Shown piece by piece: positions 6,601 to 64,000 of a stretch of DNA of 64,000 bases. This DNA is from Octopus vulgaris. Its lineage: Eukaryota. Both the position numbers and the translations under genes were made by a program. Within the stretch, counting starts at the first letter, position 1. The number at the start of each line of letters is the position of its first letter. Under the pieces are notes generated by a model. That model worked only from the letters and a program-made list of their open reading frames with translations, ran no database searches and was not told where the DNA came from. The DNA is taken from positions 92,628,001 through 92,692,000 of the forward strand of contig OX597820.1 of NCBI GenBank assembly GCA_951406725.2. Direction: 5' to 3'.

Positions 6601-7385
6601 GGTAACTTTATACTGTAATGCATCTTTCAGCAGGGCCTTAGGCTAAATCCAGATGGCTGCATAAAACTGCTACTGATTGTGACGGAAAGGAGTTGCTACT
6701 GGAGGGTCATATATAAGGCAACAGGATTCAATCCCTTCACACACCAGCGGAAAGCGTCAGAAGTGTCTGTCGGGGAATTTCCAGGAAATCTTCAACCCGT
6801 TACTGGCCTACTAATTTCTCCGAATGAGAATCCATGGATTACTATGCGTGGAGTGCGATTGAGAAAGATAACAACTGCTTTTCCTGCAGCACCACGATCG
6901 ACTGGTGGCCAACATAAAGGATCGACTGTCTTCCGAGGAACACAGTGAGGAACTCATGTACTACAGTTTCTGTAGCCTGGTGAGGCTGTTGTGGTAGCTG
7001 AGGGCAGCTATCTGAGTAAACTGTTATGTTCCAGACTTAATCCACTTTATACTTTTGAGTATGGTAATTACTTTTGGATAGGATATTTGTTTTTATTTTC
7101 CTTTTCTGCAAACTGCGAAAGTTAGCACGAACATCTTGTATATGTTGTGTCAATGCGATTATTAATTACAATTTTCACTTTCTTTTTACAAGACGGGTAG
7201 AGTAGTGAGTATATGTCGTAGTGTAATATTAGGCAATAGTTTGTCTTATACGTAGGGCACAACATTGTACAGATGACCAAAAAAGTTTCAAGAGAATTGC
7301 ACATCTCAAGTAATACGGCAATTCAAAGTTAGTATCATGCCACTACGTTGCCAAATGTGTCAAACGCGTGCAAAAAATATGCATC

Positions 7386-7745
7386 TGTGTGGTAGAAACT
7401 TGCTTCCAAACCACATGGTTCCGGGTTCAGTCCCACAGCATGGAAACTTGGGCAAGTGTCTTCTACCATAACCTTGGGCTGACCAAAGCCTTGTAAGAGG
7501 ATTTGGCAGACGGAAACTGAAAGAAAGTCGTAGTATAAATATGCATGTATTTGTGTGTCTGCATTTGTAACGCCCACCATCACATGGCAACCGATGTTTG
7601 TGTGTTTACGTCCCCGTAATTTAGAAGTTTGACAGAAGTGACCGACAGAATGAATCCTAAGTCCTGGGATCGATTTGTTCGACTAAAGGAGGTGCCCCAG
7701 CATGGCCGCAATCAAACGACTGAAACCAGTAAAAGTATAAAAGAA
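7386..7745 (+). mobile_element. tRNA-derived SINE family A
   Basis: A/B-box-like head (GTGTGGTA...GGGTTCAGTCCC), body GGCAAGTGTCTTCTAC, tail ...GACTGAAACCAGTAAAAG; matches copies at 36.9, 47.5, 48.6, 57.9 and 59.9 kb. Confidence 0.9.
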
Positions 7746-7882
7746 TAAAAGAATACATATATTTACACACACTCGCACATATAGACACGTATGTATGTAT
7801 ATATTATACATAGGCATATTTATATACATACATATACATATATATATATATAAACACATGCATATGTATGTACATACGCACA

Positions 7883-7957: not shown

Positions 7958-9926
7958 GAGAATTTGTTTTGGCGTTTGAAGATGCACTTGAATATCAAAC
8001 GTATTGTCGTTTTTAAATTTTGTAATAGTTCTATTCAAATACCAAACCGGTTTCGACAATTCTTTTTGCTTATCAATGGTCCAAATATATTAATAAAGTG
8101 TTCACGAGAGAATAATAATATTGGATATAGCTTAACTCATAACTTAGATATTATACCTTCTACGAACAATGAGAAACTAGACAAATTCTACTTAAGTAGA
8201 AACAGTTATAATTATAATAATAAATACTTTAACTTCCCTGTACTCAATAAACATTCTATTAATTTGAATAACCCCGGTAATAATACATCTCACGAAATAT
8301 CATAACAAATAACATTCCCCTATCAAATACACACATAAATAATAATACCTAAAACAATTGCGATTGCATTAAGAATGCATGCAAAATAGGAAGTGTCATA
8401 TATCAGTGTACAGTAACAGCTCTAGAAAATAAATATTTTTATGTTGGATCTACTGAAAATAAAATAAAGAAACGGATATCAACCCGCTTATACATACTTA
8501 GAAATAAAGATAAATCTAACTCAGCTGGATTCTGCAAATTTATCTGCCAACTAATATATAACAATATAAATTTTAATATTAAAATGGATATAATAGCTTC
8601 ACCACCTTCTTATAAAGCTAATAGTAAAAATGATTTATTTGTTTAAATGAGAAATTTTTCAGTCTTTCGGCGAAATGCACATTACTTAACTTTAGAAATG
8701 AGAGAAAGAAATATTGTATACACATGGGAAAATATGTATGTTCCAAATATAAACACATAGATAATAAGAGTTCAGTTACCTCTCTCACCACTATAGTTGC
8801 ACACTTTAATCTATAACCCATACTATCACTTCTATTTACTTCATTGTTGATATATTAAGCTAATTATTAATAATGTTCATATAGTATTCTACTATTAATC
8901 CCATACTTTAACTATAGATTTATATTTAATTTTATTTCTTAATTACTCTTTCTTCAATTTACTTTGAAAAATTCATTTATACCTAAATTAAAACATTACA
9001 TCTCTCATTATATCACTTTTCTATATATTTTCCCATTATCTTCTAATTTTTACCAAATTTCCCAATAGTAGTAATTATTATTTTCATTTAATATTGTTAA
9101 TTTGTATTCCCCCATTATATATTTTTAATATAATTAATACCGATTTGCACATTTTTTCTCCTTTTCCGAGATTTACTATTAATATTTACCTCCTTTCACC
9201 CTCCAATGTTTTAAGTTTCCATACTATTCTTTACTCAGATATTTTATTTATTTATTAAATTTATTAATAAATATACATATAATTATTTTTCAAACCTTTA
9301 CATAAAAAAACATGTTTTTTTACTTATATTCATTTTTTCTATATGTTTTCTATAATTCCTAAGATGAATTAACTATCCATATTACCCCCACACCTCCTTA
9401 ACCGCTATATTTATTTTACACACATAAGAATTTTATCCCCTAAACTAAAGAAACTATAAATTTTTTCGTTGATATTAGGGATTTTTCTTCGTATTCTATA
9501 CACATAACAACGCCATTCTTTTATCGTGTTTATTTATTTATTTATTATACCAGGTGGTGCTATCAAGGTCGAAACCTATTAAAGTTATCAAAGTTTTACT
9601 TTATATTACCGCTAAAGATCGCCAAACAAATGAAACGCTACTTATTTTAAAATATATGAAAATAAGTATAAGAATGTGCATTGTCCGTTTAATTTTAAAA
9701 AATTCTATATGTGGCTGATGATTGCACGACATTTTAAAACTGATGTAATACTTACAGTGTTTAATAAAATGAAGTAGCATGAAACAATTGTACTACACTA
9801 CCTTGGATATCCTTGTTGCATATTTTGATTATAATCACCCCATTTGATTTATATGGGTAATACCATACAAAATACTGGTGCCTTTAACTTAAGTACCATA
9901 TTCATCTGAATCTAAATTTTGCTGAA

Positions 9927-9930
<4 letters not shown>
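7957..9930 (+). mobile_element. 5'-truncated Penelope-like element (linker, GIY-YIG endonuclease, long pLTR) between microsatellites
   Basis: About 8350-8645 translates NNCDCIKNACKIGSVIYQCTVTALENKYFYVGSTENKIKKRIS, a Cys-motif plus GIY-YIG domain; linker motif IGYSLTHNLDII upstream; HHR near the 3' end; (TA)n on both sides. Confidence 0.85.
9710..9797 (+). ncRNA. Type I hammerhead ribozyme with long stem II insertion
   Basis: tgtgg CTGATGA (9715-9721) ttgc...gcat GAAAC (9781-9785) aatt GTA ctaca; 5-bp stem I; palindromic stem III ACAATTGT. Confidence 0.7.
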
Positions 9931-10012
<82 letters not shown>

Positions 10013-10094
10013 TGTTTGTGTATGTGTGTGTGTGTGTGTGTATAAAGATAGATATATATATGTATATAAATATATATATATGTATATAAATATA

Positions 10095-10662
10095 TCACCT
10101 TCACCTTGATCACCTTGACCGACCAGTCCGTCAGGCGTCCATTTGACACCGCTGGTCACAGCACGCTGGACCATATGTTTACTCTAACGCAACTGCTTGG
10201 GCGAGCAAATGAGTACAAGCTGCCTCTTTGCGTTGTGTTTATAGACTATGAGAAGGCCTTCGATAGCGTCGAAACCAAAGCAGTGCTGAACTCGCTGCAG
10301 AGGCAAGGAGTCGAAGTGCAATATGTGCAGCTGCTCAGAGAGGCAAATTCCGGATGCACCACCGACATAGCTCTACTGTCATCACCCATACGAGTGCCAG
10401 TCGAGAAGGGAGTGAAGCAAGGAGATACAATCTCTCCAAAACTTTTCACTGCATGTCTCGAAAAGTTCATCAGAGGCATCGACTGGCAAGGTGGTGGCAA
10501 CATCAATGGCGAGCTCCTCACCCACCTCCGTTTCGCTGACGACATAGTACTCATCACTGAAAACACGGATCAGCTTCAGACCATGCTGACGGAGCTCGAC
10601 ATCAAAAGCTCTGCAGTAAGTCTCAAGATAAACCGCATGAAAACAAAGTACCAACAGGTCGA

Positions 10663-10665
<3 letters not shown>
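10095..10665 (+). mobile_element. RTE-clade LINE reverse transcriptase fragment
   Basis: Open frame with STLDHMFTL, FIDYEKAFDSV, GVKQGDTISPKLF and HLRFADDIVL; truncated, with (TA)n on both sides. Confidence 0.95.
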
Positions 10666-10747
<82 letters not shown>

Positions 10748-11180
10748 CATGCATATATGTGCGTGAGCTTGTGCGTGTGTGTGTGTATTTAGAAAATTAT
10801 CTCCGCTTCCACTAATATAATAGATTCGTTAGGCAATTGAAAGTGAATACTAAGATTCTGTAATTCAATCTAAGTTATAGAGAATGATTCCGTGAGATTC
10901 AAACATTCGGAACAATTTCGGTTATAGCATTGAAAACATTCGTCCAAGATATACGTCGTTAAATTATTCAGTTTCAGAAGATCTATCGTATTACTGAGAT
11001 GTTCTTTGCTAAAATATTTAAATCTTTAATGCATAACTATTTGCTGTACTTGTATGGATAAACATATAAAATACTACCGTCCTTGAACGTTCAGACACAC
11101 ACACATACAATACACAAACATGCACACATACATGTATACATATATATATGTGTGTGTGTGTCTATATATATCTTTATATA

Positions 11181-19545: not shown

Positions 19546-19632
19546 ATTCTCTCCGAAAAATCGTCGTTTTCTTTCACCACTAACCCTCTATTCAACACCA
19601 TAGTAAGAGCATTGCCCGACTGGCTGAGAAGT

Positions 19633-20112
19633 GTTTTGTCTTGGTATAAAAGATGGGCTACAGCAAATATTCTGCTCAATACCACAGATTTGCTTGTCAG
19701 TTGTTTGACCTTAACCAGTTGAGCAAGTCTCTTAGTGGCTGACGATATGTGCATCTCTGATCACAAGCAGACGCAGTGGGGGAGTATCATAGCCATATGT
19801 TGAGAGGGATTCTTTGGTGTTTGAATAATTCACCTCTGGAAACATGGGTGTTTCGTTCAACATCCTTAAACAACACTTATTCAGGGACCTTTTGAGCGGG
19901 ATGGGCTACTCGATCAGAAGAAAATTCTAACTGGGCCCCACCTGCAAGGTCATGTGCCGTTTATCTTGCTATGAGATCACCACTTTTAGCACATATGGTT
20001 GTGATGCATGTGCCTAGTGTACCCTTAACAGATGGGTAGTCATGATGGGTATACTGGGCTTCGTATATTTTACTCCAGTGTCGCTTTGATGGCATGCACT
20101 TCTCTCTCACTC

Positions 20113-20155
<43 letters not shown>

Positions 20156-20730
20156 GCCCTGATGCAATACCAGGCAGTGGCTCTCATGGTTTCTGATCTT
20201 AACTGATTGGAAGTGTTATCATGTACATTGTTTTGTCTTGGTATAAAAGATGGGCTACAGCAAATATTCTGCTCAATACCACAGATTTGCTTGTCAGTTG
20301 TTTGACCATAACTAGTTGAGCATGTCCCTTAGTGGCTGACGATATGTGCATCTCTGATCACGAGCAGAAATAGTGGGGGAGCATCATAGCCATGTGTTGA
20401 GAGGGATTCTTTGGTGTTTGAATAATTCACCTCTGGAAACATGGGTGGTTTTTCAACATCCTTAAACAACCCTTATTCAGGGACCTTTTGAGCGGGATGG
20501 GCTACTCGACCTGAAGAAAATTCTAACTGGTGCCCACCTGCAAGGTCATGTGCTGTTTATCTTGATATCAGATCACCATGTCGCGCACATATGGTTGTGA
20601 TGCATGTGCCTGGTGTACCCTTATCAGACGGGTAGTCATGATGGGTATATTGGGCTTCGTATATTTTACCCCAGTGTCACTTTGATGGCATGAGCTGCTC
20701 TCTCACTAAATAATAATAATAATAATAATA
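19633..20730. repeat. Two tandem copies of a ~480-550-bp interspersed repeat, each ending in (TAA)n
   Basis: 19633-20113 and 20230-20710 are highly similar (TTTTGTCTTGGTATAAAAGATGGGCTACAGC...CTCTCTCACT); probably the UTR of a TAA-targeting non-LTR element. Confidence 0.85.
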
Positions 20731-20924
20731 ATTCCTTTTACTACCCATGTATTTAATTTAACTTTAAAAAAAATGAACGAACTAGTGAGTTTAGTTTAAT
20801 GGCCTACCAATGTATACTATCAGTTGCTTTGCCCTAGGAGTCGGGAAGACATTCGGCAAGAAATGGAAGCAAATTTGAAAGAAGAAAAAAAAAGATAATA
20901 ATAATAATAATATGATAACTCACA

Positions 20925-25959: not shown

Positions 25960-27390
25960 GAAAAGGAGATAACAAAGCCAAGGCTGTGAAGAGTTTTCAG
26001 GACATTTATAAGGAAAAAGTTATAAAGTCTTACACCTGTTTCTAGGATATTATGGATATCTCTTCATCAGAGGCGATGTGAAATCGTTGAATAGTGGTAA
26101 ATATTTGAGTTCGAAATAAGGAATTATTATGGAAACGGAGGAGATAGGGAATATAGGGGGAAATAAGAGAATTTAAGTAGAAATAAAATATAAAATACTG
26201 TAGTTGCTGTTCCATTATTCAAGTAAAGTGCTGTATAAAAGTGGTAAAAATGTTCCTTGTATCTGGTATGTAAGCTCCAAGAGTAGTTCATGTTTAGTCG
26301 TTTCAAAATATGGAGCCGTGGTTTCTGTGTGGCTCATTCGAAATGGTTTTGTGGTTTGAATGGAAATTTGAGAATGTATAGGTCGCATTTTTTTTTTAAA
26401 TGGGAGGAAAAGATATATATGATTAGAATGAGGAGATAGCTCAAAATGAAAACAGGAAGAGAAAATCAGAGGTAGACAGAGATAAAAAAAGAAAAGAGAG
26501 ACAAAGAGAAAATTTTTTTTAAAGTGAAAAAGTGAAAGAAAACATGAAGAAAGGGTGAAAGAATTGAGAAAAGGAGTGTGAGTTTGTGGTGAAGATATTG
26601 TCAGGAGAGGCTGGGAGAGGAGTAGGGAAGGGGGATACGAAGATATGGGTGGGGTGATACTAAAGTGATTAGTAGTTTTAGTAGAAACATTTAAAGTGGA
26701 GGGAAGAATACAAGTATGTCAAATTTCTATAAACAGACGTATGTGATAGGTTAGTGTGATAGGTAGGAATCAGAGGGGAGGAAAGGAGGTATAACGACAT
26801 ACATACGCGAGCACACAAGTACGCCACCCAGGTCATCGATCTCGTTGGACTATACATAGTCCTCCAGCTCCAAATACATTTCCCCATCCTCAAGGGAGGC
26901 CGCCACAGAGATGACACCTTGCTACTTACCAAGAGCGTAACTAAATCCTCTTTAGAACGAACTAGAAAATATCTACACAATTTTTTCTCGATCCTAAACC
27001 TGTCTATTACGCTTGAAGATTCCCACAAATCTACTAACTTTGCAGACCTAACTTTAAACTTAGATACCTGCTAATACAAAAAACTAACCAATACCTTATC
27101 ACAAAACTAACTTATCACAAAACTAACCAATACCTTAAATATTTAAACATTCATTCAACTCACCACGAATCCACCTTTGATAATATAGCCAAGGGTATCT
27201 CGATCCGTATATCTGACTTCTCTTCCACTGAGGAAATATTCAATAACAACGCACCATATTACAACCAAGAGCTCGCTGCTAGCAGCTTCTCCCAAAATAC
27301 TAGGCTCAAGCAACATATATCTGAAATCACACCACAACGACACACTAACCATCAGAATCACAATCGACCACAAAGGCACTATGCTAGAAC
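25960..27390. mobile_element. Penelope-like relic with inverted structure (pLTR on minus 25960-26790, RT on plus 26810-27300)
   Basis: Plus: VIDLVGLYIV...GGRHRDDTLL...NFADLTLNL...PYHKTNQYLKYLNIHSTH...ISDFSSTEEIF. Minus: HHR-containing pyrimidine-rich tail. Confidence 0.8.
26027..26074 (-). ncRNA. Minimal hammerhead ribozyme in PLE pLTR
   Basis: Minus strand gcct CTGATGA aga gatat ccata atatc cta GAAAC aggt GTA agac; one mismatch in stem I. Confidence 0.7.
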
Positions 27391-27899
27391 CCTATTTTTC
27401 ATTCCTTTTCTTTTGGCTATTTGATGAAGAGTGAGGAAGGCCTTCTGTTGGAATATTCCGGTTGTGGGGTGCTTCCAGCTCTTGTGTTTCGGGAAGATTT
27501 GAACCAATAGCCGACTTCATGCGCCCAGTCTGGTTCCCCACTATGGTGCGCGACATTTGTTCACCTGGGTGACGGCCGATTTGGTGTGTATTTTGCTTTG
27601 TTATCATTGAGGCATGGCGAGCTTGGACGTTGACCTTATAGAACGGATCTGTATGTTTAGTGTTAACGTTTTGAGACAACACCGCCTCCGAGTTCTCTGA
27701 ATGAAAACATTGCTCGTAATATGGCTTCTTATGGCTAACAGATCTGTATTCGACTGCATTTCTCTTTTGTTGACAGATTTATCTCCGGGTATAGTTTCTT
27801 TGTGATGATTTCAAGCTTTCATATGTGAGTATGTGTGTCCGGTAAATTTCATTTAGTTGTGTAAACATTGGGGTGCACGTGTAGTCCTATGGGTATCAA

Positions 27900-28847: not shown

Positions 28848-29079
28848 CTTTATTTAAAAGCAGCAGAAAATTCAACAAAACCTGTTACTCTGAGTTTCAC
28901 GTTCCCGTTCGTCGGACAGTTTTTTTCTAGCAAAAACTGTCCGAGGAACGGGAACATGAAACTCAGAGTAACAGGTTTTGTTGAATTTTCTGCTGCTTTT
29001 AAATAAAGCATATTACTCTACCCCTGGTATTTGAGTACTCTTTTTTCCACCTTGTTTCACATTTATGTGTTTACTCCGG

Positions 29080-29080
<1 letters not shown>
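28848..29080 (+). mobile_element. Fold-back HHR element, copy 1
   Basis: 77-bp arms (28848-28924 and 28932-29008, two mismatches), 7-nt loop, 72-bp tail ending CTCCGGT-(AT)n. Confidence 0.9.
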
Positions 29081-29145
<65 letters not shown>

Positions 29146-29329
29146 CATACATGTAGCATTCATACATATATTTAAATATTTAATATAGAATTGGGAAAAT
29201 GTAACACTGCCTGCGTGATTCGAACATCGCTTCTAGTTTAAAGTGTGCAACTGAATTCATTATACCAAATATACCTCGACTTTTTACCATCCAAAAGCAC
29301 TCACATACATGCAATTCCACACCCACTCA

Positions 29330-36863: not shown

Positions 36864-37278
36864 TCTCTTTTACTCTTTTACTTGTTTCAGACATTTGACT
36901 GCGGCCATGCTGGAGCACCGCCTTTAATCGAGCAACTCGACCCCAGGACTTATTCTTTTGGAAGCCCAGTACTTATTCTATCGGTCTCTTTTGTCGAACC
37001 GCTAAGTAACGGGGACATAAACACACCAGCATCGGTTGTCAAGCAATGCTAGGGGACAAACACAGACAGACAAACACACACACCCATATATATATATATA
37101 TACATATATACGACGGGCTTCTTCTTTCAGTTTCCGTCTACCAAACCTACTCACAAGGCTTTGGTCGGCCCGGCGCTATAGTAGAAGACACTTGCCCAAG
37201 GTGCCACGCAGTGGGACTGAACCCGGAACCATGTGGTTGTTAAACAAGCTACTTACCACACAGCCACTCCTGCGCCTA
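36861..37278 (-). mobile_element. SINE family A, full length
   Basis: Complete head to (TAAAAGAG)n tail on the minus strand. Confidence 0.92.
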
Positions 37279-37657
37279 TATTTTATATATTTGTATATAT
37301 CTATTTTCCTTTATTTCTACTTATATAAAAATTCTAAATATTTTGGTAAAATGAAGTCATATATTTCAAGTTCTAGCAATTATGTGTACAACAATTTTAT
37401 ATGGTATGTTTAAATACTTTAGCGATAATTTTACAAGCAACTTATCGAACAATCTCGTTCCTAATATTGGAACAAAACCAGCCATTTCAGGAATCGACAT
37501 ACGAAATAGTGTGTTGCAAGTAAAGTTTTTAAGGCGAAAAATAGCAAAGTAGTCTCCAATGGAACTTGAAATCAGAACTGAAGGGTTATGATGTAATATT
37601 GCTTCTCATTAATCTGAGTTTCTAAGAATCTTCGTATCTAGCGCTCTGTTTGTAGTA

Positions 37658-47250: not shown

Positions 47251-47450
47251 TAAGCCTAGACTAATAAATCTGCTTAAAATGTCATGCGCAGTGCTGTATA
47301 TGATTTTCTTTTTCACTTGCTAGCCCTGGATGAAAGTGTTTTTTACATTGCCTTCGAATGTCGTTCTACCTTAAAATAGAGAAAACTTGACATCACTTTT
47401 GTAAGTTTTGGAGTAACATGACTGCAATGATGTTCGAAATAGCTTCTCAT

Positions 47451-47864
47451 AGGCTCAGGAGTGGCCGTGTGGTAAGTAGCTTGCTTATCAACCACATGGT
47501 TCTGGGCTCAGTCTCACTGCGTGGCACCTTGGGCAAGTGTCTTCAACTATAGCCTCGGGCCGACCAAATCCTTGTGAGTGAATTTGGTAGATGGGAACTG
47601 AAAGAAGCCTCTCGTATATATGTATATATATATATCTGTGTGTGCGTGTGTGTTTGTGTGTCTTGGTTTGTTCCCCCAGCATCTCTTGACAACCGATGCT
47701 GGTGTGTTTACGTCCCCGTAACTTAGCCGTTCAGCAAAAGAGAACGATAGAATAAGTATTAGGCTTACGAAGAATAAGTCCTGGGATCGATTTACTCGAC
47801 TATAGGCGGTGCTCCAGCATGGCTGCAATCAGATAACTGAAACAATTAAAAGAGTAAAAGAGTA
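47451..47864 (+). mobile_element. SINE family A
   Basis: Full-length match to the other family A copies. Confidence 0.9.
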
Positions 47865-48588
47865 CACGTATAAAATCGTTTTAGTGTCACTAAATAATGA
47901 AGAAAACAAGACTAGTTCATTTATTTCCGTTCTTTTGATAAGTTACGAGGCTCCCATATTTAAGTAAAAGTAATTACTACTCCTATCTACACTAACTAGT
48001 ACATTCAATACTCCAACACAGAATCTTCAGCCTCCAAGATTGTTTCATTGTCCCTGTGTTATTATTATATATTTTCTTTTTTCCAGGCTCTAACGTGGTT
48101 CCAAGCTGAACCATAACAGAATCAGTCTCACCAATCTCAGGTGACGTTCGAAGGTAACGTATACTACGTTTTCATCCAGGCCCAGCAAATGAAAGAAAAA
48201 ACATGTATTATACTATGCATGACTTTTCTAACAGATTTAGCAGTGTCAGTGAAATGATAACGATTCTGACAGCTCGCCACCTTTGTTTGTATAAACAGTG
48301 ATTTCAAATTTGTGCACGAAGCCAACAGTTTTTGGGGAGAGGGTAAACAGATTGCGTACTTATCAAATGGTACTTATTTTATCAAGTGGTACCTCCGGGA
48401 AGATAAAAAGCAAAGTCGACCGTGGCAAAATTTTATCGTAGAACATAAAGATGGATGAATTACCACTGAGCACTTCGCCCGGCGTGCTAAAGACTCTCCT
48501 AGTTCACTGCCTTTTTACGTATAAATATTTCTTTTATTCTTTTATTCACTGCCTTTGTACGTATAAATATTTATTTTATTATTTTATT

Positions 48589-48933
48589 TGTTTCAGTCAT
48601 TTGACTGCGACCATACTGGAGCACTACCTTTTTTTTGTCGAGCAAATCGACCTCACGACTTATTATTTGTAAGCCTAGTACTTATTCTATTGGTCTGTTT
48701 TGCCGAACCGCTAAGTTACGTGGTGGGGCCAAACACAGACACACAAACACATACACAAACATACATATATATAACGGGCTTGTTTCAGTTTCCGTCTACC
48801 AAATCCACTCACAAGACTTTGGTCGGCCCGAGCTATGGTAGAAGGTACTTGCCCAAGGAGCCACGCAGTGGGACTGAATCCCAAACCATGTGGTTGGTAA
48901 GCAAGCTACTTACCACATAGCCACTCCTGCGCC
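48589..48933 (-). mobile_element. SINE family A with internal deletion
   Basis: Reverse-complement match to family A. Confidence 0.88.
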
Positions 48934-50254
48934 AATCAAAACATTTTTTTTATATTCTTGAGTGTCATTATTAGTCTAAAATAATCACATTCAGACGTTT
49001 GACTATTGTTATCATTTTATATAATACAATAAATATATATACCAGAAAAAGCAAACCTCCAGACTAATTACTTGAATTAATTCCATTCTGCTGGACCATG
49101 ATTTCAAACCCCATGCCAAATGAACTCGCTCGCTGTATGTGATTAACGAATTTAAAACCTGTACCATACTGGTTCTAACCATTCTAATACACGTATTTCC
49201 TTACAAAAATTTGCTTCATGTCACTGCGATAAATCCTTATTACATAAAAGGTAAAAGCCCTAAATTTCACAGCCTTTTCAACATGTGGTTTCCTTACACT
49301 CTCGATGACATATATGTGGGTGGCTGTTATTGCATACGCAGATATTTCGCTCGTGATAGTTGTCAATTTATTGTAGTAAATACCATTTCCTATAATAGAA
49401 ATTCTTCTTACTCTTCATCATATATGAAGAAATACCAAGGTAACAGCACAAGACATTTATGCACCACGAAAGTCATGTTCGATAAAGAAATGTATTGTAT
49501 ACAAAGCAGAATCACAGATTCTTTTTTCTGAAAATACACATCACCATCGTAACCACACTCTAAAACGACGTGTTTTGAAACAGTGTGAGAACCCATCTGA
49601 GGGGAAAATATTCTATCAGCAAGTTTATTTCGCACATATATTTTCTTTGCTCCTGTCGTTTATAAATGCATGAACTGTGTCGGTGTGGGTCTCTGTTTTA
49701 CTTCTGTCTACAAATGTATTTTTTTCAGTGTGCATGTTTCAGTTATATCGGCTTTTTTTTTTCATACCTTTGATATTCTTTTTTTCGATATTCTTATCCG
49801 TTTCACGTTTCACAGATGCTTTTCATTTGTTAACGCTTTTGCTTCACTAAAATATATATACATATATATATATATGCATGTGTGTGCGTGAGAGAGAGAG
49901 AGAGAGAGCAGGTACTTGCATGTGTGTACGTGTTAGTGCACATTCGTTTCTATTTCTATATTTACATCTGCAAATCTATATATGCATGCATATAAAATTT
50001 TGTATATATTATATGTACATGGCATGTGCGTATTTATGTGTATATGTATATGTGTGCGCTCATGTATGTATACATATATATAGTAATACAGGTGAAAAAG
50101 TGTGAATTTAGATTCGTCCTTTAATTCGGAGGTTTCTAATATATATATATGAAAGAGTCTTTAACGTTTCGAGCCTACGCTCTTCCACAGAAAGGAACAC
50201 AGAAAGAAACAAGGAGAGAAAATAAAGAATGCGTAGAGGCTAGCGATCTATCAC

Positions 50255-53380: not shown

Positions 53381-53415
<35 letters not shown>

Positions 53416-53419
<4 letters not shown>

Positions 53420-54625
53420 ACGAAACGGAATCCCCCCGTCGTCGCTCGCCCGAACGGCTCACACAAGTTCCGCCACGGAACCCAAAGAGGCGGAGAGAGG
53501 AGAGATACAGATAGATACTGCCACAACATCAACAGCACAGAGATACAGAGGCACAACCCGAGATACAACCCAAAGAGGCAAGGCAACAACTGGCAACACT
53601 GGCTTATATTCAAACAACAGTTTATACGACAATTACAATGTTACAACATCAAGATACATCAAAGCATGCACGTGACTACTCAATACATAATACAACATCA
53701 TGTAACAATATATCAGTCCGGAGACGCAACAAGTCATATACAGTATTTCAAAGGTACACGTCCGAAGACACAGTTCTCTAAAGTCTCTTTTTCTAAACAT
53801 CACAAATAACGTCACATCAACAAGTCCTTTACTCTTCAATTCACAATGTCCTTTATCGACTATATCGACAGAGTCCTTGTTTTTAAACACCACTGTTCTT
53901 TACACCGTGACACATATCAATGCACAAAACACATACCTCAATTCTCAATTGAATCTGCCAGTGTCCCATTCCTCTCAATCCTGCTAATTCCTCTGATTAC
54001 TGCCAATTCCTCTGCATACTGCTAATTCCTTCTGTACATATCCCAATCAGTGCCGCCAAGCCTCCGCATCCCAGCTTGCTCCCAAGAATTCCAACGCTTC
54101 CAAGATTCCATCTACTCGCTCTGACTTCCAGAATCCCACTGTCTTCTTCGAGGACCGGCCAACGACTGCCAGATCCGTCTGTGTTCTTCGACGACCGCTC
54201 AACGACCCCCCGACCTCACTTCGTCTCTGTCCTTCTTCCACTCCCCTCATCTCCCTCTGTCTATATCGCTCTTACCCTTTCTAATTGCTATCTGATTCCT
54301 TACTCTATCTATATCGCCTACTGTCTCTTAGCCTCTCTATCTGCTCTCTGATCCCTTAGCCTCTCTATCTGTCCCTTTTCTCTTACTGTCAATACCCTCT
54401 CCATCTGTTCTTAGATTCCCTTAATCTGTCTTCCTCTTTCACTTCTTCAAGGGGTGCTCAGAATGACCTCCAATCGACCGCACAAGGTCAGAAAGGTCTC
54501 ATTAATCTCCCACTAGACAAAGGACCCGTCACTTTTCACCAGACATACTGGAACCATTATTCCTATGTGGGTCACCAGAAACACTACACTAATTAAACCC
54601 GAAATGCACTTAGCCAACCGTAACA
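53416..54625 (-). repeat. 3' LTR
   Basis: TGTTACG...CGTAACA with 7-bp terminal inverted repeats; I found four differences from the other LTR. Confidence 0.97.
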
Positions 54626-54638
54626 CTACCCCCTACCT
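54626..54638 (-). other. Polypurine tract
   Basis: Minus strand AGGTAGGGGGTAG immediately before the 3' LTR. Confidence 0.85.
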
Positions 54639-56562
54639 AAGCTTTTGTCGACCCGACAAAGCATAACAAAACTCGCACCTCCGAGCAGCAGACTCTCCGG
54701 GGGCTGGGGGTCCCCTTGGGTGGTTTCTCCTCCGGGGGTCTCACCTCCCACGGCCACCACTTCAGCACCAGCCACAGGTTGGCACCTTCCCTCTGCGGCT
54801 TGGGTAACACCTCCGCCAACGCCGCCAGGCTTCCTACTAGCCGCCCACAATAGGCGCACCGTCCGAGGAAGTTCCTCAAATCCCTCACACAAGAAGGGTC
54901 CGGCCAATCCTTCACAGTGGCCACCTTCCTCAGGGCTCTATAGCCCACGTAGCATCTTGCTGTACCATCTCCATTCTGCGCAATTATCGCCGACGACCAG
55001 GGACCATTCCGCTTTTCCACTGTTCCCCGTCGCCGATATTTCCTCTTGCGCTGCTGTACTGAGACCTTCCTCCGGCCTCGCTGCTTCCTCAAGCGACAAC
55101 CGCCCTGGTCGACGAAACGTTCTGCCAGGTCCGTGCGACCAGCATCCAACAACGCTCGCGACCAACGTCCTGCGCTCTTCACCAACGGTTGCTTCTTCCG
55201 CAACTGCATCAGCGGACCACGATCTCCCTTAACTTCATCACTGCACCGGCAGAACTGACCCCGCCGCTGGTTTACCGTCCGGCGCAGTTCCACGATTTGC
55301 CCTCTGCAAATCGCCTGCGCAGCCTTCAATAAATCGGCCGACCCACCCAGCGCTCTGTCAGCCTCTGCCTCCACCAGGGTCCAGCCGACCCTCAATTGAG
55401 TTCCTATTCCGCACTGCATGTCGGGCTCCACCGGCTCCACGCAACCATCAAATACAGAGCTCCCCCAAGTGCCAACAAAGCACCAGCGACTCCTTGCGGA
55501 CCGCTTCCTCAACTGCATCCGTGGGCCACCACCTCCTTCAACTGCGTTGCCGTATCGGCAGAGCTGGCCCCACCACTGGTTCGCCATCTGGCACGATTCC
55601 TCGATTTGCCTTCTGCAAATCGCCTGTGCCACTTCCAAAAGATCGGCCGACCCAGCTAGCGCTCCACCAGCTTCTGCTTCCACTAGGGTCCACCCGACCC
55701 TCAATCGAGCTTTCACTAGGCACTGCCTGTCGGGCTCCACCGGCCCCAAGCAACCATCAACCACAAAGCTCACCCAACGCTGAAGCAGTCTTCCTGGTCT
55801 CGGTGGACCCACCACCGTTCGCAGCCGTCTCGCCTCGTCAACGGGCCTGGTCCTTTTCCTCACCAGCTTCCGTCCCGCAGGCCTCACAACACACACGCCC
55901 GGCCGCCAGTCCATCCACGCCTGTGGCCTCTCCACAGTGGGAACCATACAGTCCCTCTGGGCCCCAAGAGACAGGGGTCCAGACACCAAAGGACCCGCAC
56001 ACGGCATAGCACCTGCCGCGACCATCACACACAGAGCCGGAACCTCGGACTCAGCGACATTCGCCCCAGACCTCGCCAGCTCTTCGTCCTGAGCTCCGAG
56101 AGACAGGGGTCGAGATGCCAAGGGCTCCAGACACGGAACAACAGCATCAGCCATAACACCTTCCACAGGCCTTTTGGTTACTTCAACCTCTACGGGTTCC
56201 AAATCACAAGATTTCTTGGGTACAGCGTCACAAATTTCGGCAACCAGCCCAGGTTCCGCAAACACAGCCGGTCCAGCATCACAGATTTCGGCAACACTTC
56301 CTTCACTATCTGTTTCCCTCGATGCTTCGTTCGACGGGCAATCTCTGCCCACAGGACCGTCGCTATCCTCGGTCCAACACCGATCCTTCAAAGCTGACCC
56401 ATCCGCAACCTCAAGCTCCCGCTGATCTGCCCACAGGCCCTGTCGCCTCCTGTCCATTCTCTCCACGAACGCGTCCGTCTGCGCCATCTGGCCCCTTAAC
56501 ATCTCCACAATCAGAGCAAGCGAAATCTCCTCGTCTCCGGTCTGACAACCAGACAAATCCAT
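54637..56562 (-). CDS. 641-aa element ORF with degenerate Gypsy pol remnants and an internal 103-aa duplication
   Basis: First ATG at 56562 (MDLSG); GTVEKRNGPWSSAIIAQNGDGTARCYVGYRAL (RT N-terminus) joined to VKDWPDPSCVRDLRNFLGRCAY (RT thumb/connection); no YxDD motif. Confidence 0.75.
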   Translation of the reverse strand: MDLSGCQTGDEEISLALIVEMLRGQMAQTDAFVERMDRRRQGLWADQRELEVADGSALKDRCWTEDSDGPVGRDCPSNEASRETDSEGSVAEICDAGPAVFAEPGLVAEICDAVPKKSCDLEPVEVEVTKRPVEGVMADAVVPCLEPLASRPLSLGAQDEELARSGANVAESEVPALCVMVAAGAMPCAGPLVSGPLSLGAQRDCMVPTVERPQAWMDWRPGVCVVRPAGRKLVRKRTRPVDEARRLRTVVGPPRPGRLLQRWVSFVVDGCLGPVEPDRQCLVKARLRVGWTLVEAEAGGALAGSADLLEVAQAICRRQIEESCQMANQWWGQLCRYGNAVEGGGGPRMQLRKRSARSRWCFVGTWGSSVFDGCVEPVEPDMQCGIGTQLRVGWTLVEAEADRALGGSADLLKAAQAICRGQIVELRRTVNQRRGQFCRCSDEVKGDRGPLMQLRKKQPLVKSAGRWSRALLDAGRTDLAERFVDQGGCRLRKQRGRRKVSVQQRKRKYRRRGTVEKRNGPWSSAIIAQNGDGTARCYVGYRALRKVATVKDWPDPSCVRDLRNFLGRCAYCGRLVGSLAALAEVLPKPQREGANLWLVLKWWPWEVRPPEEKPPKGTPSPRRVCCSEVRVLLCFVGSTKA

Positions 56563-56600
56563 AGCGAAAAAGAACCGATCGAAACGCAGCAATCAGGACA

Positions 56601-56618
56601 ATCCCACTTCTGACACCA
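56601..56618 (-). other. Primer-binding site, tRNA-Leu(CAA) type
   Basis: Minus strand TGGTGTCAGAAGTGGGAT, 2 nt from the 5' LTR, complementary to the tRNA-Leu 3' end AUCCCACUUCUGACACCA. Confidence 0.9.
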
Positions 56619-56620
56619 GT

Positions 56621-57826
56621 TGTTACGAAACGGAATCACCCCGTCGTCGCTCGCCCGAACGGCTCACACAAGTTCCGCCACGGAACCCAAAGAGGCGGAG
56701 AGAGGAGAGATACAGATAGATACTGCCACAGCATCAACAGCACAGAGATACAGAGGCACAACCCGAGATACAACCCAAAGAGGCAAGGCAACAACTGGCA
56801 ACACTGGCTTATATTCAAACAACAGTTTATACGACAATTACAATGTTACAACATCAAGATACATCAAAGCATGCACGTGACTACTCAATACATAATACAA
56901 CATCATGTAACAATATATCAGTCCGGAGACGCAACAAGTCATATACAGTATTTCAAAGGTACACGTCCGAAGACACAGTTCTCTAAAGTCTCTTTTTCTA
57001 AACATCACAAATAACGTCACATCAACAAGTCCTTTACTCTTCAATTCACAATGTCCTTTATCGACTATATCGACAGAGTCCTTGTTTTTAAACACCACTG
57101 TTCTTTACACCGTGACACATATCAATGCACAAAACACATACCTCAATTCTCAATTGAATCTGCCAGTGTCCCATTCCTCTCAATCCTGCTAATTTCTCTG
57201 AATACTGCCAATTCCTCTGCATACTGCTAATTCCTTCTGTACATATCCCAATCAGTGCCGCCAAGCCTCCGCATCCCAGCTTGCTCCCAAGAATTCCAAC
57301 GCTTCCAAGATTCCATCTACTCGCTCTGACTTCCAGAATCCCACTGTCTTCTTCGAGGACCGGCCAACGACTGCCAGATCCGTCTGTGTTCTTCGACGAC
57401 CGCTCAACGACCCCCCGACCTCACTTCGTCTCTGTCCTTCTTCCACTCCCCTCATCTCCCTCTGTCTATATCGCTCTTACCCTTTCTAATTGCTATCTGA
57501 TTCCTTACTCTATCTATATCGCCTACTGTCTCTTAGCCTCTCTATCTGCTCTCTGATCCCTTAGCCTCTCTATCTGTCCCTTTTCTCTTACTGTCAATAC
57601 CCTCTCCATCTGTTCTTAGATTCCCTTAATCTGTCTTCCTCTTTCACTTCTTCAAGGGGTGCTCAGAATGACCTCCAATCGACCGCACAAGGTCAGAAAG
57701 GTCTCATTAATCTCCCACTAGACAAAGGACCCGTCACTTTTCACCAGACATACTGGAACCATTATTCCTATGTGGGTCACCAGAAACACTACACTAATTA
57801 AACCCGAAATGCACTTAGCCAACCGT

Positions 57827-57830
<4 letters not shown>
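56621..57830 (-). repeat. 5' LTR
   Basis: Direct repeat of 53416-54625. Confidence 0.97.
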
Positions 57831-57874
<44 letters not shown>

Positions 57875-57877
<3 letters not shown>

Positions 57878-58031
57878 AGGGGCTGTCTGGTAAGTAGCTT
57901 ACTTGCCAGCCACATGGTTCCGGTTTCAGATCCACTGCGTGGCACCTTCGGCATGTGTCTTCAACTATAGCTTAGGTCAGAGCGAAGCCTGGTGAGTGGA
58001 TTTGATAGCCGGAAACTGAAAGACGTCCGTC

Positions 58032-58032
<1 letters not shown>
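57875..58032 (+). mobile_element. SINE family A 5' half
   Basis: Head and body up to the internal (TA)n, where a fold-back element follows. Confidence 0.8.
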
Positions 58033-58064
<32 letters not shown>

Positions 58065-58065
<1 letters not shown>

Positions 58066-58344
58066 TTTATTTTAAGCAGCAGAAAATTCAACAAAATCTG
58101 TTACTCTGAGTTTCTCGTTGCCGTTCAGTTTTTGCTAGAATGGAACTGATATATCAATTCAATCTATAGATTGAATTGATATATCAGTTCCATTCTAGCA
58201 AAAACTGTCTGATGAACGGCAACGAGAAACTCAGAGTAACAGATTTTGTTGAATTTTCTGCTGCTTAAAATAAAGCATATTACTCTACCACTGGTATTTG
58301 AGTACTCTTTTTTCCACCTTGTTTCACATTTATGTGTTTACTCC

Positions 58345-58347
<3 letters not shown>
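58065..58347 (+). mobile_element. Fold-back HHR element, copy 2
   Basis: Loopless palindrome centred at 58166/58167 (arms 102 and 109 nt, 7-nt deletion in the left arm) plus the same tail as copy 1. Confidence 0.92.
58205..58242 (+). ncRNA. Minimal type I hammerhead ribozyme
   Basis: ctgt CTGATGA a cg GCAA cg a GAAAC tcaga GTA acag; predicted cleavage after A58238. Confidence 0.8.
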
Positions 58348-58383
<36 letters not shown>

Positions 58384-59812: not shown

Positions 59813-59854
59813 ATAATAAAAACTGTTATGCTATGAGAATAGAATTATTTTCAT

Positions 59855-60262
59855 AGGCGCGGGAGTAGCTGTGTGGTAAGTAGCTTGCTTACCAACCACA
59901 TAGTTCCACGTTCAGTCCTACTGCGTGGCACTTTGGGCAAGTGTCTTCTACTATAGCCCTGGGCCGACCAAAGCCTTGTGAGTGGAGTTGGTAGACGGAA
60001 TCTGAAACAAGCTCGTCGTATATAAATGTATATGTATTTGTGTGTGTGTGTGTGTGTTTGTGTATCTGTGTTTGTCCCCACAACATTGCTTGACATCCGA
60101 TGCTGTTGTGTTTATGTCCCCGTAACTTAGCGGTTCGGTAAAAGGGACTGATAGAATAAGTACTAGGCTTACAAAGAATAAGTCCCGGGGTGGATTTGCT
60201 CGGCTAAAGGCGGTGCTCCAGCATTGTCGCAGTCAAATATCTGAGGCAAATAAAAGAGAGAA
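59855..60262 (+). mobile_element. SINE family A
   Basis: Full-length match to family A. Confidence 0.9.
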
Positions 60263-61454
60263 TAAGGAGAGGTTAAATTTTGAAGTTCTTTTGTTTTTTG
60301 TTGTTTTTTCTTGTAGATCCGGCTTTCTGACGTTAAAACAATTTTAAATGATGCCTCACCAGTTGTCCCTCCTGCTACCTTCTGCTTCATAAAATGGCAT
60401 CATTTGTTTGAATAAATAGCAAGAAATGTGTCTCTTAGAATTTACCCTAATAAGATGTCAGTGATTATGCAATTATCTGTAATAATAATGTTACAGTAGC
60501 TTTTTTAAGCATTCTATGAGCGTAGGACAATACAAACTTTCTAAGATCAATCAAGTTCTTCTTCTGTGTATATGTTAACAAAATATTGATGAAACAATGT
60601 AACCGTAGTAGTATACATCATATTTAGTTAATGTTCGTTCCCAATATGTTCTAAAAATGTTCTATCATTTTACAAATTTGATGATAAAAGAATTCTTTTT
60701 GTCATTATTCGATTATGTCCAAGTCCTACATTACTAAAAATATTTGCAAGTGTTTTGCTTCATTGTTACATACAAATACACATTACATACACATACGCAG
60801 ATATTTATGCATGTATATTTGTGTGTAACAAAATAGTTGTAAGTATTTTTATTAATATAGCGACTTAGACATAATCGAATGACTGCAAAAGTAATATAAA
60901 TTTGAAATATCAAATATATAGCAAACCGTTGTCCAAATACATCAACAAATGAAAGCTTTAAAGAAGGACAAAAAAAACAATTTACTACATGTAATCACTA
61001 GTTTATCTTTTTCTAAATACAAATGTGTATACACACAAACTGTCATACAGATATTTGTACGTGTGCACGCATGTGAGTGTGTGTGCACGCACGTGAGTGT
61101 GTGTGTATGTGTGTGTGTTTGTGTGTGTGTTGGTGTATCTCGAGGGACATGGTAGGAGCATAGTATAATAACCGGATAACACCGCATGAAGGAGTGGTTA
61201 GGAACGGTAAAGGAAGGAGATAAAAGTAAATAAAATAAACTAAGACGAAATCAAATAGAATAAACTGTAATAGGTTATAGAAGTCATAAGGACGATGGAT
61301 GGATGGATGAATGGATGGATGGATGGATAGGTGGATGGATGGATGGATGGATGGATGGATGGATGGATGGATGGACAGAGTGATAGATCGATAGAAATAC
61401 AGAAATATTTAGATAGATAGATAGATAGATAGACACATGCATAATACATACATA

Positions 61455-63833: not shown

Positions 63834-63840
<7 letters not shown>
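63707..63840. repeat. ~47-bp tandem repeat, about three copies
   Basis: TTTGTAAAATCTATGCATACCTAAGT.AATGTATATA repeated. Confidence 0.85.
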
Positions 63841-63890
<50 letters not shown>

Positions 63891-63893
<3 letters not shown>

Positions 63894-64000
63894 AGAGTAA
63901 GGACATAAATGCGAAAGAAGGTAGAAAAATAGTACTTGAATACCAGAGGTAGAGTAAAATACTTTGTTAAAAAGCAGTAAAAATATCACAAAAACTGTTA
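63891..64000 (-). mobile_element. Fold-back HHR family, diverged copy 3 (3' tail, runs off the window)
   Basis: Reverse complement TAACAGTTTTTGTGATATTTTTACTGCTTT...TACTCTACCTCTGGTATTCAAGTACT...TTACTCTGGT-(AT)n aligns with the tails of copies 1 and 2. Confidence 0.8.

What the first reader, a model, noticed from the sequence alone, without database searches (positions are those of the whole stretch)
58065..58347. Fold-back ribozyme element whose ~100-bp palindrome appears to be rebuilt at each insertion
Seen: this copy and the one at 28848-29080 share one architecture of (TA)n, inverted arm, sense arm with HHR, 72-bp tail, (TA)n. The fold point differs (loopless at 58166/7 versus a 7-nt loop matching ordinary element sequence), yet the inverted arm stops at the same base (...ATAAAG, next to CATAT) in both. 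Copy-specific variants (GCAA vs GGAA loop, AATCTG vs AACCTG, TTTTAAG vs TTAAAAG) are shared by both arms within a copy but differ between copies. Inference: cDNA is 5'-truncated at a variable point, snaps back, copies itself, and joins the (TA)n target via TA microhomology. Inverted 5' pLTRs are known for Penelope, but a tiny non-autonomous family with a fixed rejoining point would be notable.
Basis: partly seen in the sequence, partly recalled or inferred. Interest (0 to 1): 0.82.

Follow-up and report, generated by a model that had tools for sequence, protein, structure and literature searches.

The report
Twin-primed Hydra-clade Penelope retroelement stubs
These small mirror-image inserts in TA repeats are tail-end stubs that match a known group of jumping genes (Hydra-clade Penelope-like elements), and relatives in other animals show a pair of conserved hairpins that likely mark two separate start points for reverse transcription, which would explain why the mirrored arm stops at the same base in both copies.

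Summary
Both copies read (TA)n, inverted arm, sense arm with a minimal type I hammerhead, 71-72-nt tail, (TA)n. The centres differ, the left ends are identical, and arms pair by locus. The ribozyme and tail match the 3' ends of Hydra-clade Penelope-like elements (PLEs): a relative sits behind a Hydra ORF, and published Hydra families carry the same module and target (TA)n. Head-to-head inverted copies with a one-sided tail are long known for PLEs, so the architecture is ordinary. The proposed rejoining by TA microhomology does not fit, because both left ends lack the C of CATAT. In relatives the tail-less end also ends stand-alone insertions with target duplications. One copy (L011) has an inverted arm that its own sense arm does not contain. 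Nine of 10 mapped target junctions lie 3-8 nt before a covarying hairpin, which occurs twice, 60-74 nt apart, in longer elements. Best model (inferred): both target strands prime at two hairpin-defined sites, and the two cDNAs are joined head-to-head. Genome-wide centres, raw-read support and the host's autonomous partner could not be obtained.

The parts
58033..58064 (.). (TA)n target, left of copy A
58065..58166 (-). Copy A inverted arm; begins at the short (tail-less) end, equal to 58275; 7-nt deletion near 58125/6 removes the ribozyme core
58167..58275 (+). Copy A sense arm; loopless centre at 58166/7; its 5' part is family sequence (summed depth 122,000-424,000 in run X1)
58199..58248 (+). 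Minimal type I hammerhead motif: stem I 58205-58208 with 58239-58242 (extendable), core 58209-58215, 2-bp stem II with GNRA loop 58216-58225, palindromic stem III 58229-58237, predicted cut after 58238
   Evidence: same layout as Hydra-2_Amil in the supplement of PMC8557442; no Rfam hit
58276..58346 (+). One-sided tail, 71 nt (72 if T58347 is counted); ends at the long end
   Evidence: family-wide long-end junction with (TA)n in 33 contigs
58282..58306 (+). Conserved bulged hairpin (4-bp outer stem, 4-bp inner stem, 3' pyrimidine bulge), 6 nt after the short end; candidate RT-binding signal
58347..58380 (.). (TA)n target, right of copy A
28848..28924 (-). Copy B inverted arm, same left end as A, preceded by a short (TA)n run
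28925..28931 (+). Copy B 7-nt central loop, sense-strand element sequence
28932..29008 (+). Copy B sense arm with a hammerhead motif that departs from the core consensus at two places
29009..29079 (+). Copy B tail with the hairpin at 29015-29039
29080..29149 (.). (TA)n target, right of copy B
63892..64000 (-). Copy C: older subfamily, about 80% identical, same long end next to (TA)n 63834-63891; cut by the window end

Best explanation
The two palindromes are severely 5'-truncated insertions in (TA)n whose ribozyme and tail match the 3' end of Hydra-clade Penelope-like retroelements, and they were likely built by twin priming: the element's protein would nick both strands of the TA repeat and start one cDNA at the long end (58346) and a second at the short end (58275), each a few bases upstream of a conserved RNA hairpin, after which the two cDNAs would be joined head-to-head. 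Shown: architecture, equal left ends, arm identity, ribozyme and hairpin motifs, the link of this module to a Hydra ORF in a relative, and the position of mapped ends 3-8 nt before a hairpin in relatives. Inferred: that the hairpins bind the RT, that both ends are priming sites, and that the tail length is the distance between two hairpins. Least certain: how the centre forms. Either the longer cDNA folds back, copies itself and is captured by a short second cDNA, or both cDNAs run off the same RNA end and one jumps onto the other. Both give arms from one donor and a centre that varies by insertion.
For: Identity: 20 of 22 metagenome loci hit by the ribozyme pattern look like animal-DNA elements with proper stems (L005 and L012 judged chance matches and dropped). 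L001 has a C-terminal RT/GIY-YIG ORF directly upstream; it is 87% identical to the 716-aa P0005, which carries the RWK, DKT, CxCX5C, CxxC and CxH motifs that define Hydra. Hydra families target (TA)n, all carry a hammerhead, and one has an inverted 5'-truncated copy. Two priming sites: all 5 (TA)n junctions of copies A-C read ...TATA then C on the priming strand. X1 has (TA)n behind both ends (30 and 33 contigs). L001 ends at the short end with a 13-nt target duplication and no inverted arm. L011 has a target duplication (11 nt exact next to the insert) around a 14-nt inverted long-end piece, a 5-nt microhomology and a sense arm that stops at the short end; the 14-mer is absent from that sense arm (p about 1e-8 at a given place). 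Hairpin: inner stems, not constrained by the search pattern, pair in 33 of 36 cells over 9 distinct stems against 21.4 in permutations (p 1e-5). Two hairpins lie 74 nt apart in L002 and 68 nt apart before the ATG of the autonomous L024; in L025 the (TA)n-joined long end lies 8 nt before the second hairpin of its 5' UTR, implying about 60 nt spacing. In vitro, the anole Poseidon protein cuts and extends both strands, starts at two sites that bound the tail and is predicted to be a dimer (PMC11167929).
Against: No autonomous partner or second hairpin was seen for the window's own family; the clade call is by a shared RNA module only. The twin-priming signature rests on one clear locus (L011), from another animal, with low-complexity flanks. 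Near-symmetric centres (0 nt in A, 7 nt in B, 9 nt in L006; L019 joins through ribozyme stem I) are what plain fold-back predicts and need an added step under twin priming. Exceptions to the spacing rule: L017 ends 9-12 nt before the hairpin, and a tail-to-tail joint in L025 lies about 45 nt before it; no hairpin was found after the ribozyme in L003, L010, L013, L021. The permutation test ignores relatedness among stems. Summed depth in X1 is about equal over the arm (2.2-2.4 million) and the tail (2.2 million), so long palindromes are not obviously the majority form, though this depth is no copy number. In the anole element the start sites lie within a stem-loop in the ORF, not upstream of paired hairpins. 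Raw reads gave 8, 2 and 0 hits, none over the palindrome.
Confidence: 0.6

Rival explanations
1. Single priming at the long end, fold-back of the truncated cDNA, self-copying, and attachment of the copied strand to the target at a fixed point set by endonuclease cutting or by stalling before the hairpin.
For: Centres symmetric within 0-9 nt in A, B and L006; L019 joins through the stem I inverted repeat; rare B alleles in both arms; Craig 2021 ascribes the tail to endonuclease-mediated resolution.
Against: Does not explain L011, whose inverted piece is absent from its sense arm, nor why the same end closes stand-alone copies (L001). B's centre has seven T where pairing of the cDNA end would give five. 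The C of CATAT is missing at both left ends.
Confidence: 0.2
2. The palindromes descend from a few already palindromic donors or from one constant centre; later central deletions and gene conversion between arms give different centres and matching arms.
For: Only two centres are seen; B's centre can be drawn as a deletion from an A-like centre; the named variants are subfamily alleles; central deletion of palindromes is common (own knowledge).
Against: About six sites differ between A and B in both arms at once, including two alleles not listed at 1% in the family; relatives show many unrelated centres (L006, L011, L019, L023, L025).
Confidence: 0.12
3. Self-priming on an antisense RNA template, as proposed for rotifer Penelope elements.
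For: Arkhipova 2013 reads junction palindromes this way.
Against: The anole protein uses sense RNA in vitro; hairpin and ribozyme are conserved in sense; it gives no reason for two fixed ends or for L011.
Confidence: 0.04
4. A true terminal-inverted-repeat MITE moved by a DNA transposase.
For: Short, about 100-bp inverted arms, TA target.
Against: Arms pair by locus, not by side; 71-nt one-sided tail; ribozyme module tied to a PLE ORF in relatives.
Confidence: 0.02
5. Assembly or library fold-back artefact.
For: No raw read over either palindrome was obtained.
Against: Arms differ (7-nt deletion in A, 2 substitutions in B), flanks are not mirrored, both copies stop at one element coordinate, and that coordinate joins (TA)n in 30 contigs of a public run.
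Confidence: 0.02

Closest known systems
Hydra-clade Penelope-like elements (Craig et al. 2021, PMC8557442), closest 3' end Hydra-2_Amil
   Same: (TA)n target; type I hammerhead with the same stem I, core and palindromic stem III layout; a downstream hairpin of the same form is visible in the published consensus; Penelope-13_HM carries an inverted 5'-truncated copy.
   Different: Stem II is shorter (2 bp plus GNRA loop); no ORF in these copies; the published octopus family Hydra-1_Obim has a different ribozyme; the hairpin pair and a 60-74-nt tail are not described in the main text.
Penelope insertions with inverted pLTR, junction palindrome and one-sided tail (Arkhipova et al. 2013, PMC3846280; Craig 2021 Fig. 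2)
   Same: Head-to-head inverted 5'-truncated copy, shorter than the sense copy by the tail; palindrome at the junction.
   Different: Tail is 71-72 nt, not 30-40 nt; whole insert only 232-283 nt; those papers propose self-priming or endonuclease resolution, not two primers.
Poseidon element of Anolis carolinensis, PAc (Frangieh et al. 2024, PMC11167929)
   Same: Two RT start sites bound the tail; both target strands are cut and extended; AT-rich target; hammerhead upstream.
   Different: Other clade; start sites lie in one AC-rich stem-loop inside the ORF; the paper does not link them to inverted repeats.
L1 twin priming (Ostertag and Kazazian 2001; recalled, not read here)
   Same: Two target ends prime two cDNAs that join by microhomology and leave a 5' inversion.
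   Different: In L1 the second primer anneals at variable internal sites and arms do not overlap; here the second site is fixed and arms mostly duplicate each other.
Non-LTR retrozymes (Li et al. 2026, bioRxiv 10.64898/2026.07.22.740005)
   Same: Small, non-coding, type I hammerhead, PLE-derived.
   Different: Defined as tandem arrays with a ribozyme per unit; these copies are dispersed and head-to-head.

Membership tests
Hydra-clade PLE | ORF with RWK, DKT, CxCX5C linker and C-terminal GIY-YIG lacking CCHH | not testable with these tools
   Copies A-C hold no ORF and no host genome is held. Met in a relative with the same RNA module: L001 and P0005.
Hydra-clade PLE | Canonical type I hammerhead near the 3' end | tested here: met
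   Motif at 58205-58242 fits the published Hydra layout; 91 and 162 nt from the two ends, within the published 87-130 (12 of 24) and 152-210 (11 of 24) ranges. No Rfam hit. Cleavage untested.
Hydra-clade PLE | Insertion into (TA)n | tested here: met
   5 of 5 junctions in the window; 30 and 33 contigs in X1.
Endonuclease-bearing PLE insertions | Inverted 5'-truncated copy at the 5' end | tested here: met
   Copies A and B.
Endonuclease-bearing PLE insertions | One-sided tail of 30-40 bp | tested here: inconclusive
   A one-sided tail is present but is 71-72 nt; relatives imply 60-74 nt.
Endonuclease-bearing PLE insertions | Partial tandem (pLTR) donor | not testable with these tools
   No donor in the window; seen in relatives L002 and L022.
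Non-autonomous PLE family | Discrete ORF-less unit with its own 5' end | tested here: inconclusive
   Depth falls about five-fold upstream of the ribozyme but no 5' end was seen. An ORF-less unit of this module exists in L002/L011/L022.
TIR MITE | Terminal inverted repeats at both ends, arms grouping by side | tested here: not met
   One-sided tail; arms group by locus.
Non-LTR retrozyme | Tandem units each with a hammerhead | tested here: not met
   No tandem array at either copy.

The most novel reading that the evidence does not exclude
Hydra-clade PLEs carry two copies of an undescribed bulged RNA hairpin, and each positions one subunit of a dimeric RT to start 3-8 nt upstream on one strand of a doubly nicked (TA)n target. 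Programmed twin priming would then explain the Penelope tail (the distance between the hairpins) and the head-to-head inverted repeat in one step, with the palindrome built anew at every insertion.
Probability: 0.45. Interest if true: 0.75.

Novelty: new member of a known kind. Interest (0 to 1): 0.5.

Why it matters
The element and its shape are known kinds. What could matter is the mechanism: how Penelope-like elements make their inverted repeats and one-sided tails is named as an open question by Craig 2021 and left open by Frangieh 2024. The hairpin pair gives a sequence-level prediction (one hairpin per start site, tail equals spacing) that can be tested in any Hydra-rich genome and in an existing type of in vitro assay. 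It also names a candidate RNA signal for a telomerase-related RT.

Tried and rejected
No whole genome is held, so copies could not be collected. Rfam found no ribozyme at gathering score or at E 10 (only generic hairpin matches below their cut-offs). Minimum-energy folding did not recover the hammerhead (z -0.07 to -2.0 over 6 stretches). Raw runs X21-X23 carry the same species label as X1 but gave 8, 2 and 0 reads, so they do not test the palindromes. Two opposite-strand joints in X1 (58202 to 58267, 58203 to 58277) would fit non-overlapping arms, but their direction cannot be read from the table and they are not used as evidence. Exact patterns from the tail found nothing in viral contigs or metagenomes; the ribozyme pattern found nothing in viral contigs or prokaryote genomes. 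A Hydra protein found no locus in viral contigs. Pfam and PDB gave no informative hit for the Hydra proteins. A search with the window's endonuclease relic found no relative (0 of 54 candidates), so the host was not identified. The MAFFT alignment of hairpins was out of register and was replaced by stem-anchored counting. I first took L001 for a Neptune element from memory; the motifs say Hydra. Hydra-1_Obim was rejected as the partner because its ribozyme differs. Ribozyme stem I and II permutation tests (69 of 84 against 64.1; 61 of 84 against 50.4) are modest and include related sequences.

Full report
Observation. The two copies are as described. In copy A the arm 58065-58166 mirrors 58167-58275 with no substitution in 102 nt but with a 7-nt deletion that removes the ribozyme core. 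In copy B the arms 28848-28924 and 28932-29008 differ at 2 of 77 sites around a 7-nt loop of sense sequence. Both left arms stop at the base equal to 58275, and both sense arms run on through a tail that is 71 of 72 identical. A third, older copy lies at 63892-64000 on the minus strand. Two B alleles are absent from the list of alleles at 1% or more and sit in both B arms. An artefact is unlikely: the arms differ, the flanks are not mirrored, and X1 shows (TA)n behind both ends in 30 and 33 contigs (149 further loose ends were not shown). The raw-read runs gave 8, 2 and 0 reads and do not test the palindromes. The host was not identified; the repeat landscape looks like an octopus to me, which is recall and comes from no call.

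What it is. Rfam has no match. A scan of metagenome contigs with the ribozyme pattern returned 22 loci; 20 look like animal-DNA elements with paired stems and 2 (L005, L012) were dropped as chance matches. In L001 the ribozyme follows the end of an RT/GIY-YIG ORF that is 87% identical to a 716-aa protein. That protein has the RWK, DKT, CxCX5C, CxxC and CxH motifs that define the Hydra clade of Penelope-like elements (PMC8557442, section 11). The supplement of that paper lists (TA)n as target for 26 of 27 Hydra families, gives Hydra-2_Amil a ribozyme of the same layout as the window's, and notes an inverted 5'-truncated copy in Penelope-13_HM. The window holds relics of two other Hydra families with different ribozymes, so the clade is present in this genome, but no ORF tied to this module was seen. 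Whether the stubs come from an autonomous element or from a short ORF-less unit like that in L002, L011 and L022 is open.

The architecture is known. An inverted 5'-truncated copy with a tail on one side is described as typical of PLEs, and Arkhipova 2013 describes an inverted pLTR 37 bp shorter than the full one and reads junction palindromes as self-priming. Earlier notes of this scan report similar stubs in other genomes; I did not check them.

The fixed left end. All 5 (TA)n junctions of copies A-C read ...TATA then C on the strand that leaves the target, as if both ends were made by the same nick and start. In relatives the tail-less end closes insertions by itself: L001 has a 13-nt target duplication and no inverted arm. 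L011 is the most telling locus. A target duplication (11 nt exact beside the insert, in low-complexity flanks) brackets a 14-nt inverted piece that starts at the family's long end, a 5-nt microhomology, and a sense arm that stops at the short end. The 14-mer does not occur in that sense arm, so it cannot be a self-copy of it. Two primers explain it simply. This is one locus in another animal.

The hairpin pair. Six bases after the short end the tail forms a bulged hairpin (58282-58306). A pattern for its outer stem hit 17 times in the 22 loci (overlapping hits included) against 0.73 in shuffles. The inner stem, which the pattern did not constrain, pairs in 33 of 36 cells over 9 distinct stems against 21.4 in permutations (p 1e-5; relatedness not corrected). 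Longer elements carry it twice: 74 nt apart in L002, 68 nt apart before the start codon of the autonomous L024. Mapped target junctions lie just upstream of a hairpin: window A and B 6 nt; L001 6-8; L011 4 (short) and 6 (long); L002 3-4; L008 5-6; L019 3-6; L025 8 (long end joined to (TA)n, matched to its own 5' UTR); L017 9-12. That is 9 of 10 within 3-8 nt (read from the printed sequences). A tail-to-tail joint in L025 lies about 45 nt before the hairpin and does not fit, and L003, L010, L013 and L021 show no hairpin after the ribozyme; four more loci end too soon to tell (L004, L014) or stop at the short end. By eye, published consensus sequences agree: two such hairpins open Hydra-1_Ajap, and Hydra-1_Crog has one in its 3' end and one 6 nt after its 5' start. 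Published distances from ribozyme to consensus end fall at 87-130 nt (12 of 24), 152-210 nt (11 of 24) and 425 nt (1); the window's two ends give 91 and 162 (three families without a 3' ribozyme row were left out; the gap between the groups is narrow).

Mechanism. Most likely the protein nicks both strands of the symmetric (TA)n target and starts two cDNAs, one upstream of each hairpin, which are then joined head-to-head. The anole Poseidon protein cuts and extends both strands, starts at two sites that bound the tail and is predicted to be a dimer, which supports the chemistry in another clade. The centre needs a further step. Symmetry within 0-9 nt (A, B, L006) and the stem I junction of L019 favour fold-back of the longer cDNA followed by capture by the second cDNA. 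The loopless centre of A and the seven T at B's centre, where pairing would give five, fit an end-to-end jump as well. L023 and L025 show very asymmetric head-to-head joints in ORF-bearing copies. All steps in this paragraph are inferred. Against: the symmetric centres alone are well explained by a single primer; only two centres are known for this family, and B could be a later deletion; depth in X1 does not show arms twice as deep as tails.

Novelty. The element is a new family-level member of a known clade with a known insertion shape. The hairpin pair, the 60-74-nt tail equal to hairpin spacing, and twin priming as the source of PLE inverted repeats were not found in print: searches, and term searches within PMC8557442 and PMC11167929. 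The library lacks most subscription papers and Repbase reports, including Arkhipova 2006 and Cervera and de la Pena 2014, which I did not see. What I read: PMC11167929 parts 1-2 of 4 and passages; PMC8557442 abstract, passages, sections 11 and 15, supplement parts 2, 52 and 53 of 59 and supplement searches; PMC3846280 abstract, passages and the Discussion; the 2026 bioRxiv retrozyme preprint part 1 of 5 and passages (its supplements are closed and could bear on non-autonomous Hydra units). L1 twin priming is recalled.

Verdict. Real feature, Hydra-clade PLE stubs (about 0.9), known shape. Two hairpin-defined priming sites as the cause of the fixed left end, about 0.6. Interest 0.5.

Noticed in passing
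window 8359-9929 (+): Decayed Hydra-clade endonuclease C-terminus (35-39% identity to Hydra proteins) followed by a long AT-rich 3' region with a ribozyme-like core near 9714-9800 and ending at (TA)n; a different family from copies A-C.
   Followed up: partly
window 26020-27800: Another Hydra relic in head-to-head form: inverted 3' end with a ribozyme core at 26070 (minus) that resembles Hydra-1_Obim's layout, joined to a plus-strand RT fragment 26823-27295.
   Followed up: partly
window 53415-57833: A 1,214-nt direct repeat (53415-54628 and 56620-57833, 99.6% identical) flanks a GC-rich, strongly skewed 2-kb stretch with a 651-aa stop-free frame (54637-56592, minus) and no Pfam hit; LTR-like element or recent tandem duplication.
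   Followed up: no
window 10070-10789 (+): Reverse transcriptase fragment (Pfam RVT_1, E 3e-21), LINE-like by its motif (recalled), unrelated to the finding.
   Followed up: no
window 19632-20732: 505-nt tandem duplication at 93% identity.
   Followed up: no
window 60707-60880: Decayed 174-nt palindrome (74% arm identity) with no match to this family.
   Followed up: no
window 36865-37279, 47444-47862, 48562-48941, 59848-60258, 7385-7765, 57875-58057: Copies of a roughly 410-nt dispersed repeat, SINE-like; a fragment of it lies directly left of copy A's (TA)n.
   Followed up: no
L002:1492-1757, L011:1387-1568, L022:1325-1599: An ORF-less unit of about 330 nt with two hairpins and a ribozyme in partial tandem: a candidate non-autonomous Hydra family in another animal.
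   Followed up: partly
L023, L024, L025: Hydra-clade PLE contigs lie inside three bacterial metagenome-assembled genomes, likely host DNA binned with them.
   Followed up: partly
run X21, window 58283-58347: Five reads show a tail-only copy that begins at the hairpin base directly after (TA)n, with no inverted arm.
   Followed up: no
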